Of a stretch of 24,615 nucleotides of DNA, positions 16,802-18,874 are shown one piece after another. The DNA comes from a virus (Duplodnaviria; Caudoviricetes). Below the pieces are notes generated by a model that had not been told where the DNA came from, searched no databases, and saw nothing but the letters and a program-made list of their open reading frames with translations. A program made the position numbers and the translations under genes. Each line of letters opens with the position of its first letter. The first letter of the stretch is position 1. The stretch spans positions 1-24,615 of IMG/VR virus record IMGVR_UViG_3300022183_000069. One strand, written 5' to 3'.

Positions 16802-16875
16802 TAAAACGCCCTGACCCAATGATGCCCAGCAAGCCTGGAGCGGAAGACCAAGAGGCAATAAGCATCAATGGCTAA
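16801..16875 (+). pseudogene. Possible decayed small gene (ATA where a coupled ATG would be)
   Basis: TAATA instead of TAATG at the 16799-16803 junction, then KRPDPMMPSKPGAEDQEAISING*. Resembles the N-terminus of a longer cyanophage family (recollection only). Confidence 0.35.
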
Positions 16876-17008
16876 ACCCAAGCCCCTGAACGGCGCACAA
16901 TTCGTTGTGAGCAAACCAAAAAAAACACGCCAAGGCAACGGTTTAAACAGCAAGTCTTCGCATGGTCGTAAAAACGGGAGGAAGTATCGCGGTCAAGGGA
17001 AAGGTTGA
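16868..17008 (+). CDS. Small, highly basic protein (46 aa; KKTRQG...KYRGQG type), not in the ORF track
   Basis: MAKPKPLNGAQFVVSKPKKTRQGNGLNSKSSHGRKNGRKYRGQGKG*, TGATG coupled to the next ORF. Confidence 0.8.
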   Translation: MAKPKPLNGAQFVVSKPKKTRQGNGLNSKSSHGRKNGRKYRGQGKG

Positions 17009-17136
17009 TGGATTCCCGCACTTACGAAAATTGGAAAAAGGTAAAAGAAGCTCTAGAAAGTGCCGGGAAAACTGACTCCATGTTCTATCGACGAGCTGTG
17101 ACAATATTGAATGGCAAGCCTGACCCGCTAAAGTGA
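17008..17136 (+). CDS. Small hypothetical protein (42 aa), not in the ORF track
   Basis: MDSRTYENWKKVKEALESAGKTDSMFYRRAVTILNGKPDPLK*; coupled start; resembles a cyanophage microprotein family (recollection). Confidence 0.8.
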   Translation: MDSRTYENWKKVKEALESAGKTDSMFYRRAVTILNGKPDPLK

Positions 17137-17157: not shown

Positions 17158-17439
17158 GTGATTGAAATCTACGCCGCAATTTTAGGCGCGTCTCTTGGTA
17201 TTGCAGGGATGAGCGTTTCTGGATTCACCAGACGCACCAGCGAAAGCCGTGAAGCGGTTATTCGCCTCACAGCAGGCGTTGAATCCATAGCGATGAAGCT
17301 GGAAGATTTACATCAGGACATGAAAGCGGAAAAAATTCAGGCCACTGCTGACCGCCGCGAAATTTACGAACGCCTAAACGATCACGGCAACCGAATAATT
17401 GTGCTGGAGAGCTATAGCGCTAGAATCAATCCAGATTAA
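17158..17439 (+). CDS. Membrane-anchored coiled-coil protein, lysis region (holin/antiholin or spanin-like candidate)
   Basis: GTG start with AAGGAG upstream; N-terminal hydrophobic helix followed by heptads; upstream of the endolysin. Confidence 0.6.
   Translation: MIEIYAAILGASLGIAGMSVSGFTRRTSESREAVIRLTAGVESIAMKLEDLHQDMKAEKIQATADRREIYERLNDHGNRIIVLESYSARINPD
17419..17426 (+). promoter_or_regulatory. -10-like box GCTAGAAT
   Basis: 23 nt upstream of ATG 17450. Confidence 0.45.
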
Positions 17440-17449
17440 AGAGCAGCTC

Positions 17450-17602
17450 ATGGGCATCGAAGAGATTCTGACTTCCCCGATCACATGGATCATCGTTGCG
17501 GCGGCATCTGAGGTTATTGCATTGTCACCAGCTCTAAAATCAAACTCTGTAATCCAGTTGATTTTTCAAGTGCTTCACGCGCTAAAAACAAAAAAGGACT
17601 AA
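17450..17602 (+). CDS. Small holin-like membrane protein (50 aa)
   Basis: ATG 17450; MGIEEILTSPITWIIVAAASEVIALSPALKSNSVIQLIFQVLHALKTKKD has two hydrophobic/amphipathic segments and a basic tail. Confidence 0.7.
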   Translation: MGIEEILTSPITWIIVAAASEVIALSPALKSNSVIQLIFQVLHALKTKKD

Positions 17603-17620
17603 TACCCGCCGACGGGCGGT
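17590..17620 (+). promoter_or_regulatory. Candidate -1 programmed ribosomal frameshift signal
   Basis: In-frame A AAA AAG at 17590-17596, followed by the hairpin CCGCC-GACG-GGCGG at 17606-17619. Confidence 0.7.
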
Positions 17621-17835
17621 GGCTGCTGAGATTCTCGACACGATCACCATTTGAGGGCTTGAAGCGCGAGATTCAGCGCCGTAAGTTCGAGGCCACGTTA
17701 AAGCCTCGTATCGACGCTGAGGTTGAACGCTGGCATAAAGCACAACCGCCAACTATGCCGCCACCTGAGCGCGTAGACGACCTCCACATAAGATCACCCT
17801 GGAGTAATGACGAACAGCAAACCGATCAGCCTTGA
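17596..17835 (+). CDS. -1 frame extension (79 aa) of the holin-like gene
   Basis: Open frame GLIPADGRWLLRFSTRSPFEGLKREIQRRKFEATLKPRIDAEVERWHKAQPPTMPPPERVDDLHIRSPWSNDEQQTDQP* fills the apparent 200-nt gap. No ATG until 17755; only a TTG at 17659. Confidence 0.65.
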   Translation, partial: GLIPADGRWLLRFSTRSPFEGLKREIQRRKFEATLKPRIDAEVERWHKAQPPTMPPPERVDDLHIRSPWSNDEQQTDQP

Positions 17836-18874
17836 GCAGCTTTTCAGGTACTACAAAGAGTTGCCGCATCAAACCGCAGCGATTCAGGAGCTAGAAGCGG
17901 ATCTAGCTGCCAATGGCTATGAAGTCGCGATGCGTCGCGATCGGGGCTGGTTTGCGACGTGGAGCCAGTCAGGCAAACAGCGCGACTATCAAGGGGCAAT
18001 CGCACTGATCCAGCAGTTTGAAGGCTTCCATCACGATGCGTACCTCTGCCCCGCTGGGGTGTGGTCACTGGGCTGGGGGAACACGACAAAGGCTGACGGT
18101 TCACCGGTAGTTCCTGGCGACCGGATCAGCCAAGAGGACGGCGATGCCCTTTTGCAGAAAACGATTGATGGGATTGTTAGGGTATTGGCCGGGTCGATTC
18201 CGTACTGGTCCGCCATGAAGGAAAATCAGCAATCGGTGCTGATCAGTTTCGCGTACAACCTGGGGAGCTATTTCTACGGGCAACCAGGCTTTGAGACGAT
18301 TAGCCGTTGCCTGCGCGAGCGGACCTACAAGAGCGTGCCGAGTGCGCTGCTGCTCTACTGCAATCCGGGCAGCGCGTTTGAAGCTGGCCTTACGCGCAGG
18401 CGCAAAGCTGAGGGCATGTTGTGGGCTGGGGAACAGGCTGCAGCGCCAGAGCCTGCAAAGATCAGGCCAGAGTCACCATTTAGCACCCGGCTAACGCCAC
18501 ATATCACGCTAGGTGAATTTGCGCTGGGTCAAGAGGCACGCAGGTTTGAGCATCAATACCAAGTGGATATGGCCGCTGAGCTGGCGGCATTCCTTGAGCG
18601 TGTTCGCGTCAGATTTGACGGGAAGCCAATCATCATCACGTCTGGCTACAGGCCACCGGCAATTAATCGCTCAGTCGGCGGAGCAAGCGGATCCGAGCAC
18701 CTGTATCGGTACGGGGAAGGCGCTGTGGACTTTTACGTGCAAGGTGTTGATATTTACGACGTACAAGATTGGTGTGATCAAAACTGGCTTCATAGTCTAG
18801 GATATGGTGCGGATAAAGGTTTCGTTCATCTTGGAATTAGAAAAGGCAGGCCAAGAATACGCTGGGATTATTAA
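17807..18874 (+). CDS. Modular endolysin: N-terminal helical domain + GH24 lysozyme + peptidase M15
   Basis: IQQFEGFHHDAYLCPAGVWSLGWGNT, LISFAYNLG and GLTRRRKAE (GH24); ITSGYRP...GGASGSEH...AVDF...FVHLG (M15 Zn peptidase). Confidence 0.9.
   Translation: MTNSKPISLEQLFRYYKELPHQTAAIQELEADLAANGYEVAMRRDRGWFATWSQSGKQRDYQGAIALIQQFEGFHHDAYLCPAGVWSLGWGNTTKADGSPVVPGDRISQEDGDALLQKTIDGIVRVLAGSIPYWSAMKENQQSVLISFAYNLGSYFYGQPGFETISRCLRERTYKSVPSALLLYCNPGSAFEAGLTRRRKAEGMLWAGEQAAAPEPAKIRPESPFSTRLTPHITLGEFALGQEARRFEHQYQVDMAAELAAFLERVRVRFDGKPIIITSGYRPPAINRSVGGASGSEHLYRYGEGAVDFYVQGVDIYDVQDWCDQNWLHSLGYGADKGFVHLGIRKGRPRIRWDY

What the first reader, a model, noticed from the sequence alone, without database searches (positions are those of the whole stretch)
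17450..17835. Candidate programmed -1 frameshift giving two forms of a holin-like lysis protein
Seen: the 50-aa membrane ORF ends ACA AAA AAG GAC TAA, so A AAA AAG (17590-17596) is in frame just before the last sense codon and the stop. A GC hairpin CCGCC-GACG-GGCGG starts 9 nt later. The -1 frame stays open for 79 codons to TGA 17835, filling an otherwise empty 200-nt gap in a tightly coupled operon, and it has no good start of its own (TTG 17659 with GAGG only 2 nt away; first ATG at 17755). Established: A AAA AAG plus a 3' stem-loop is the dnaX/IS3-family -1 signal, and phage frameshifts are best known in tail chaperone and capsid genes. Inference: a 50-aa product and a roughly 128-aa product (basic amphipathic helix + Pro-rich + acidic tail) are made at a fixed ratio, possibly a holin/antiholin-type lysis timer or an envelope-disruption component. 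No lipoprotein spanin is visible in the window.
Basis: partly seen in the sequence, partly recalled or inferred. Interest (0 to 1): 0.82.

Follow-up and report, generated by a model that had tools for sequence, protein, structure and literature searches.

The report
Conserved frameshift in cyanophage lysis gene
A tiny membrane-protein gene beside the cell-wall-cutting enzyme of this likely cyanobacterial virus ends in a ribosome-slip sequence that most related viruses keep together with a second reading frame lacking its own start, so the gene likely makes a short protein plus a rarer long form that is predicted to help time the bursting of the host cell.

Summary
The frameshift is strongly supported; the hairpin stimulator is not; the role in lysis is inferred. 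A_AAA_AAG (17590-17596) precedes the last codon of a 50-aa ORF, and the -1 frame is open for 79 codons. In 86 clusters of related junctions, 72 have both a slippery heptamer and a homologous -1 extension and 11 have neither. A held-out set gave 38 and 10 of 52. Variants stay slippery (G_GGA_AAG, A_AAA_AAC). The -1 frame is under purifying selection upstream of its first possible start, and no start is conserved. The hairpin is not conserved, so efficiency is probably low. The family sits beside endolysins of unrelated types, in the T7 holin slot, and in distant cassettes with spanin-like pairs, but matches no holin profile. Against: two distant cyanophages appear to encode the extension as a separate gene, and several lineages lack it. 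Ten literature searches found no description. This scan noted the same system before on other genomes.

The parts
17158..17439 (+). Upstream 93-aa gene with an N-terminal hydrophobic helix followed by a probable coiled coil (phrog_26178, unknown function); a recurring neighbour and likely second lysis membrane protein
   Evidence: KD19 max 1.65 at residue 1; its family F2 lies within 1.5 kb in 45 of 86 cluster representatives. Coiled coil judged by eye.
17450..17602 (+). ORF1: 50-aa membrane-type protein (phrog_22542, unknown function) with a hydrophobic helix 10-25, an amphipathic helix 33-49 and a basic C-terminus; zero-frame product
   Evidence: (AF2 pLDDT 77.6)
17590..17596 (+). Slippery heptamer A_AAA_AAG (predicted -1 shift site), one codon before the TAA stop
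17596..17835 (+). -1 frame extension, 79 codons: predicted long helix, Pro-rich linker, conserved C-terminal hydrophobic-x-hydrophobic-x-[AS]-P-W motif; no transmembrane segment, no Cys
17606..17619 (+).
17807..18874 (+). Endolysin (phage lysozyme plus peptidase M15 domains); its ATG lies inside the last codons of the extension

Best explanation
The 50-codon gene likely encodes a holin-like lysis membrane protein, and a small share of ribosomes likely slip back one base at A_AAA_AAG to make a 128-aa form whose added tail is predicted to lie in the cytoplasm and to modulate lysis, most likely by slowing or organising the short form as an antiholin-like minor subunit. [quoted passage not shown] Inferred: tandem slippage of tRNA-Lys(UUU), at low efficiency because no stimulator is conserved. 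Inferred: N-out/C-in topology, since the N-terminus is acidic and the part after the helix is basic. Inferred: co-assembly of the two forms through their shared 49 residues, with the terminal [AS]PW motif binding a partner. My odds: frameshift real about 0.95; ORF1 a lysis membrane protein about 0.8; long form a regulator of the short form about 0.5 given those.
For: Frameshift. 72 of 86 clusters have site plus extension, 11 neither, 2 site only, 1 extension only (Fisher p 4e-11; kin are not independent). Held-out loci fetched with an ORF1-family alignment: 38, 10, 2, 2 of 52 (p 2.5e-7). The Lys-Lys pair is AAA AAG in 64 of 65 junctions against 19 of 85 in neighbouring long ORFs, and the preceding four-fold codon ends in A in 60 of 60 against 23%. 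Heptamers among the clusters: A_AAA_AAG 66, G_GGA_AAG 5, A_AAA_AAC 2, G_GGA_AAA 1. In 17603-17658, before the first start, 22 of 134 ORF1-found loci were close enough to compare: -1 frame 144 synonymous, 50 non-synonymous, 0 stops; zero frame 24, 172, 0; +1 frame 4, 173, 21. Of 73 extensions, 6 have no ATG/GTG/TTG, 18 no ATG and 49 none in the first 15 codons. L044/L047 have a decayed site and a truncated extension, and L197/L209/L254/L255 lack both, with the ORF1 stop overlapping the endolysin ATG. Absence of the site needs at least 3 changes on the ORF1 tree. A tRNA-Lys(UUU) pattern is in 60 of 61 genomes of the family of a Prochlorococcaceae MAG, and a CUU pattern in 6 of 61. Lysis context. 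An endolysin-like family lies within 1.5 kb in 57 of 86 representatives. In T7-like cyanopodoviruses the gene lies between tail fibre and small terminase; that this is the T7 holin 17.5 slot is recalled. Distant homologues lie directly before a lysozyme gene in S-CBP3, S-SRP01 and DSL-LC07. Seven distant loci place ORF1 before a lipoprotein-like ORF, six of them after a profile-confirmed endolysin. Charge after the conserved SE motif is +2 to +6 and the N-terminal mean is -1.3, n=72.
Against: No protein-level evidence exists for either product. No holin or antiholin profile matches: P0001 in Pfam and PHROGs, 83 distant members in PHROGs, 14 in NCBIfam. Fold searches gave nothing at E<=0.001. 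A second membrane gene with a hydrophobic N-terminus is usually adjacent and could be the true holin. A product made at a few percent is a weak stoichiometric inhibitor. The extension is dispensable: 11 of 86 clusters lack it, as do P60, S-CBP1/3/4, S-SRP01 and DSL-LC07. S-CBS2 and S-CRES3 appear to make it as a separate gene. L396 and L399 keep the extension without a canonical heptamer. 80 of the first 325 loci were fetched with the extension as query, which inflates the first table. The hydrophobic helix is short (16 residues in the model) and carries an invariant Glu, so topology is uncertain. Some members (S-EIV1, S-CBS2, S-CRES3, DSL-LC02) are not next to an annotated endolysin.
Confidence: 0.45

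Rival explanations
1. The frameshift is real, but the long form acts on the outer layers of the envelope as a stand-in for the spanins these phages lack, or recruits an envelope or host factor through its terminal motif.
For: 20 of 91 spanin-less phages infect Prochlorococcus or Synechococcus (PMC6139136, passages). 0 of 73 extension clusters have a lipoprotein-like ORF within 600 nt, while 7 of 7 distant cassettes examined do. In those cassettes a helical gene with its own ATG follows ORF1 closely. The extension has a long predicted helix plus a Pro-rich linker.
Against: Charge distribution predicts a cytoplasmic tail. The extension has no TM segment and Cys in only 1 of 74. It shows no similarity to the spanin-like gene of the distant cassettes (hhalign probability 0.5%). 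Cyanopodoviruses without the extension also have no annotated spanin in the 4-kb regions fetched. ORF1 net charge is -1 to +4, whereas the disruptin gp28 is described as cationic.
Confidence: 0.17
2. The frameshift mainly throttles the next gene: only shifted ribosomes reach and re-initiate at the endolysin or terminase start that overlaps the end of the extension, which sets the holin-to-endolysin ratio.
For: The next ATG lies 1-29 nt before the extension stop in most loci where one was found, often 4 or 7 nt after the Trp codon, with no clear SD by eye. Where the extension is absent, the ORF1 stop overlaps the endolysin ATG (L197, L209, L254, L255).
Against: The extension is conserved as protein along its length, and the Pro codon of the motif uses all four synonyms (24/13/12/8). 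The following gene varies among endolysin, small terminase, membrane gene and HNH. Overlapping genes are the norm in phage operons.
Confidence: 0.13
3. The frameshift is real but the two forms are not lysis proteins (for example virion-associated, assembly or exclusion membrane proteins).
For: No holin profile matches. A homologue occurs in a microvirus record with no annotated endolysin. Some members lie away from lysis genes.
Against: The family is repeatedly linked to endolysins of unrelated families in unrelated phages. It occurs in short-tailed phages, which have no G/GT role to fill.
Confidence: 0.18
4. No frameshift: the downstream ORF is a separate gene, started by re-initiation at a CTG overlapping the TGA stop or at an internal GTG/TTG, and the Lys-Lys codons only encode a basic tail.
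For: The codon overlapping the stop is CTG in 46 of 73. S-CBS2 uses a GTG overlapping the stop, and S-CRES3 has an ATG, for extension homologues.
Against: That codon is CTA in the window and is not CTG in 27 of 73 (one TTG). 6 of 73 have no common start at all. This view cannot explain 60 of 60 A at a silent position, 64 of 65 AAA AAG, the G_GGA_AAG substitutions, or joint loss of site and ORF.
Confidence: 0.04
5. Transcriptional slippage or sequencing error in the A-run, not ribosomal slippage.
For: Some database proteins are in-frame fusions at this spot.
Against: Those fusions are nearly all single-contig records and include read-through into an unrelated frame, as homopolymer errors would give. 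The run is only six A. G_GGA_AAG members have three. No indel is listed in bridging DNA or RNA-library contigs, though contigs drop rare variants.
Confidence: 0.03

Closest known systems
Tail assembly chaperone G/GT -1 frameshift of lambda and other long-tailed phages (PMC5009743, passages)
   Same: A slippery heptamer near the 3' end of a short gene gives a major short and a minor C-terminally extended protein. Lys-codon sites are used; that G_GGA_AAG is the lambda site is recalled and also appears in earlier scan notes.
   Different: This gene is a membrane-type protein in the lysis region after the tail fibres, not before the tape measure gene (which starts at window 72). It also occurs in T7-like short-tailed phages. 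No chaperone profile matches.
E. coli dnaX A_AAA_AAG -1 frameshift (PMC5009743, passages)
   Same: Identical heptamer. The likely hosts mostly carry only tRNA-Lys(UUU).
   Different: No conserved 3' stem-loop or upstream SD was found. The shift here extends the protein; that the dnaX shift truncates it is recalled.
Lambda S holin/antiholin dual start, and the similar SPP1 motifs (PMC6316719, passage)
   Same: One lysis gene gives two nearly identical membrane proteins, with the longer proposed to regulate the shorter.
   Different: There the long form differs at the N-terminus by an alternative start. Here it would differ by a 79-aa C-terminal domain added by recoding. No homology, and antiholin action is untested.
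phiKT gp28 disruptin (10.1101/515445, abstract)
   Same: Small amphipathic helical protein of a spanin-less phage.
   Different: gp28 is a cationic peptide. ORF1 has net charge -1 to +4 with a hydrophobic helix. No frameshift is mentioned in that abstract, and homology was not tested.
MS2 coat/lysis frameshift coupling (cited in PMC10885494, passage)
   Same: The only link between frameshifting and a lysis gene that I met in print.
   Different: An RNA phage. The shift ends coat synthesis early to deliver ribosomes to a separate lysis start, and no fused lysis protein is made.

Membership tests
Programmed -1 ribosomal frameshift | In-frame X_XXY_YYZ heptamer conserved beyond what the amino acids require | tested here: met
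Programmed -1 ribosomal frameshift | -1 ORF under purifying selection from the site, without a conserved start | tested here: met
   exceptions S-CBS2 and S-CRES3
Programmed -1 ribosomal frameshift | Fusion product or shifted ribosomes observed | not testable with these tools
   needs a reporter, MS or Ribo-seq
dnaX/IS3-type stimulated site | Conserved 3' stem-loop or pseudoknot 5-9 nt downstream | tested here: not met
   pseudoknots were not searched for specifically
dnaX/IS3-type stimulated site | Internal SD about 10-14 nt upstream | tested here: not met
   mean duplex energy near zero at all offsets, n=73
Tail assembly chaperone G/GT | Lies between major tail and tape measure genes of long-tailed phages | tested here: not met
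Holin | Small protein with at least one TM helix and a basic C-terminus | tested here: met
   predicted only: KD19 1.83, helix 10-25, charge
Holin | Linked to an endolysin gene | tested here: met
   57 of 86 representatives
Holin | Similarity to a described holin family | tested here: not met
Holin | Timed permeabilisation of the inner membrane that releases endolysin | not testable with these tools
   needs complementation of a holin-null phage
Antiholin | Delays holin triggering | not testable with these tools
   needs co-expression lysis curves
Spanin (two-component or unimolecular) | Lipoprotein signal on the product or a linked lipoprotein partner | tested here: not met
   Cys in 1 of 74 extensions; 0 of 73 with a lipoprotein-like ORF within 600 nt
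Disruptin | Strongly cationic amphipathic peptide that disrupts the outer membrane | tested here: inconclusive
   amphipathic helix present, net charge only -1 to +4; activity untested

The most novel reading that the evidence does not exclude
Phages of picocyanobacteria build their lysis machine from one recoded gene: the short form makes the membrane lesion, and the frameshifted form, made at a fixed low ratio, supplies the envelope-breaching or partner-recruiting step that spanins supply elsewhere. This would be a recoding-controlled lysis component and an answer to how spanin-less cyanophages exit.
Probability: 0.17. Interest if true: 0.9.

Novelty: new variant of a known kind. Interest (0 to 1): 0.72.

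Why it matters
Utilised frameshifts in tailed phages are described for tail chaperones and capsid or tail proteins. A conserved one in a lysis-cassette membrane gene was not found in my ten searches. The family is large: 3699 proteins at 90% clustering and 194 at 50%. It spans long-tailed and T7-like cyanophages, including cultured S-CBS1, S-CBS3, KBS-S-2A, S-EIV1, S-B28, WH11-B and 7B11-B, where the extension is unannotated or annotated as a separate gene with a doubtful start. It names a candidate holin for phages of Synechococcus, whose lysis genes are poorly known and which mostly lack spanins. It also gives a single-site handle, the heptamer, for testing how lysis timing is set in these abundant aquatic viruses.

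Tried and rejected
Hairpin as stimulator: rejected. Against synonymous recoding, codons 2-14 are mildly more structured (mean z -0.68, n=73), but codons 28-40 are equally so (-0.78, n=71), so the excess is not specific. Upstream SD: none. Natural fusions: 59 longer proteins were listed, some in frame with the extension, but nearly all are single-contig records and others read into an unrelated frame, so I treat them as indel errors and not as support. L056 was dropped for a frame break inside ORF1 and L003 for an open end. AF2 of one such fused record, P0124, as a stand-in for the long form: pLDDT 65, pTM 0.25, only helix 66-97 confident, and no fold match. Fold search of ORF1: nothing significant; a Thermus holin at E 3.5 is noise. 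ESM Atlas: only unnamed clusters for ORF1 and no usable hit for the extension. Complex prediction of the upstream protein with the fused alignment: no verdict; the two chains also came from different phages. Extension as a descendant of the spanin-like gene: no similarity. The RNA-library contigs (X15, X16) cover the region but cannot show expression or rare slippage. The ORF1 tree is a quick one with few supported forks. Literature searches without a description of this system: (listings only). The library lacks most subscription journals, the original S-CBS1/S-CBS3 genome paper did not come up, and I read no supplements.

Full report
Setting. The window is a whole 24.6-kb virus record, estimated 34% complete. 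It carries tape measure and tail genes, then small genes, an endolysin, dCTP deaminase and an HNH gene. The closest named relatives of the 50-aa ORF are hypothetical genes of Synechococcus phages S-CBS1 (74%), S-CBS3, KBS-S-2A, WH11-B, S-B28, 7B11-B and S-EIV1. A picocyanobacterial host is therefore inferred, not shown. The runs holding half or more of the sampled words of this stretch are freshwater metagenomes.

Observation. On their own they are not above chance: the heptamer occurs 7 times against 8.8 expected, and the local folds have z between -0.4 and -1.0. Contigs of X2, X15 and X16 bridge the site, with no indel listed in the A-run.

Conservation of the shift site. I analysed 324 loci plus the window. 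All had an ORF1 homologue. L003 (open end) and L056 (frame break inside ORF1) were dropped, leaving 179 distinct junctions in 86 clusters at 80% identity. Site plus extension, site only, extension only and neither were 158, 2, 2, 17 of 179 and 72, 2, 1, 11 of 86. One 'site only' case (L049) has the terminal motif by eye and the other (L025) has a shortened extension. The extension profile, seeded on -1 frame sequences, hit 160 -1 frames and no 0 or +1 frame. Eighty loci had been fetched with the extension itself, so I tested 79 further loci fetched with an ORF1-family alignment. After removing 18 duplicates and 9 already seen, the 52 left gave 38, 2, 2, 10. The codon choice is not explained by the protein: AAA AAG in 64 of 65 Lys-Lys pairs (background 19 of 85), and A at the silent third position before it in 60 of 60 (background 23%) across Ala, Gly, Pro, Ser, Thr and Val codons. 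Where the amino acids change, the site stays slippery (G_GGA_AAG in 5 clusters including S-EIV1, A_AAA_AAC in 2, G_GGA_AAA in 1). These p-values overstate the case because loci are related. On a quick tree, absence of the site needs 5 changes, 3 forced by well-supported branches. L044/L047 show a damaged site with a truncated extension, and L197/L209/L254/L255 have neither, with ORF1 abutting the endolysin ATG.

The extension has no start of its own in this clade. Of 73 extensions, 18 lack ATG, 6 lack ATG/GTG/TTG and 49 have none in the first 15 codons. In the 56 nt before the window's first start, 22 of 134 ORF1-found loci were at least 65% identical. They give 144 synonymous and 50 non-synonymous changes in the -1 frame, against 24/172 in frame 0 and 4/173 with 21 stops in +1. 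The CTG that overlaps a TGA stop in 46 of 73 is CTA here and is not CTG in 27 of 73. Two distant genomes go the other way. S-CBS2 has no heptamer and a GTG overlapping the stop for an extension homologue (E 1e-9). S-CRES3 has a hairpin and T-run after the stop and then an in-frame ATG for a weaker homologue (E 0.008). The domain can therefore apparently be made separately in a far lineage.

Stimulators. The named hairpin pairs in 63.9% of cells over 62 distinct sequences (I gave 65 of the 71 clade members) with no covariation above shuffles. The consensus fold is -2.1 kcal/mol. Over 73 clusters, folding at +5 to +50 has mean z -0.53 against -0.45 for a control region, and no SD-like pairing is seen upstream. 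[quoted passage not shown] A UUU pattern is in 60 of 61 genomes of the family of a Prochlorococcaceae MAG. A CUU pattern is in 6 of 61; ARAGORN confirmed one and rejected two of the three fetched. I infer a low, roughly fixed ratio.

The proteins. ORF1 is modelled as helices 3-8, 10-25 and 33-49 (pLDDT 78). It has an acidic N-terminus and +2 to +6 charge after the invariant Ser-Glu, which suggests one membrane pass with the C-terminus inside. Extensions are 35-114 aa (median 79), have no TM segment, and end in [AS]P[WF] or a close variant in 58 of 74. A stand-in model shows one long confident helix and a disordered tail. No Pfam, PHROG or NCBIfam family of known lysis function matches, and there is no fold match.

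Context. An endolysin-like family lies within 1.5 kb in 57 of 86 representatives, and the upstream helix-plus-coiled-coil family in 45. In T7-like cyanophages the gene precedes the small terminase. More distant 65-76-aa homologues without a site lie next to a lysozyme or terminase gene in P60, S-CBP1/3/4, S-SRP01 and DSL-LC07. In seven still more distant loci, ORF1 is followed by a lipoprotein-like ORF (7 of 7 by my relaxed rule), in six via an overlapping helical gene of about 80 aa. Six have a profile-confirmed endolysin just upstream. That pair looks like a two-component spanin, which is my inference, since no spanin profile hit. ORF1 is the only other recurring hydrophobic small gene there, though L375 has a second candidate. 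This is the best argument that ORF1 fills the holin role. The extension is not detectably related to that helical gene.

Mechanism. I commit to a holin-like short form with a minor frameshifted form acting as its regulator (0.45). The rivals are envelope breaching or recruitment (0.17), a non-lysis role (0.18), throttling of the next gene (0.13), a separate gene (0.04) and slippage or error (0.03). The frameshift itself I put near 0.95.

Novelty. Passages of the 2016 frameshifting review (first 300,000 of 449,034 characters held; 'holin' 0 hits), the PRFect paper ('holin' and 'cyanophage' 0 hits) and the SPP1 paper list tail chaperone, capsid and tail cases and the MS2 coat/lysis coupling. Ten searches (listings only) showed no title or abstract start describing this system. 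Subscription papers and supplements were not seen. Kongari 2018 (passages) leaves the exit of spanin-less cyanophages open. Earlier notes of this scan report the same arrangement on other genomes. I read them after reaching this view and do not count them as evidence. It works like G/GT but is not a member of that family: a known recoding device in a new gene class.

Noticed in passing
L341:2004-2144 (Microviridae record MH572431): An unannotated ORF of about 46 aa is a clear ORF1 homologue (HMM E 1.4e-12) in a microvirus whose five annotated genes include no endolysin; a candidate single-gene lysis protein. No other obvious microvirus came up among the 80 loci.
   Followed up: partly
L339:1986-2429 (S-CRES3 gp116-gp115): ORF1 homologue, TGA, a strong hairpin with a T-run, then an in-frame ATG for a weak extension homologue; read-through, termination-tuned expression or a separate start are all possible.
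   Followed up: partly
L336:1920-2410 (S-CBS2 gp49-gp48): The extension homologue is a separate gene in the -1 frame, with GTG overlapping the TAG stop and no heptamer.
   Followed up: partly
L342, L343, L345, L348, L350, L352, L375, just 3' of the ORF1 homologue: Candidate two-component spanins (a helical gene of about 80 aa in six, and a lipoprotein-like gene in all seven) with no spanin profile hit.
   Followed up: partly
L279:2964-3296 (family F11, 11 loci): NblA-like phycobilisome degradation gene (Pfam E 1.2e-4, below the curated cutoff) near the lysis genes of a group of larger phages.
   Followed up: no
window 16868-17136: Two tiny recurring genes precede the cassette: a very basic 46-aa ORF (phrog_516; family F6, 16 loci) and a roughly 42-aa ORF (family F7, 15 loci), both of unknown function.
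   Followed up: no
window 17807-18874: Two-domain endolysin (lysozyme plus peptidase M15) whose catalytic content appears to vary among relatives while the N-terminal segment recurs.
   Followed up: no
L330 (G037): A tRNA-Lys(CUU) gene lies about 130 nt from tRNA-Lys(UUU); the same pattern string is in 4 of 61 genomes. Such hosts might shift less at this site.
   Followed up: partly
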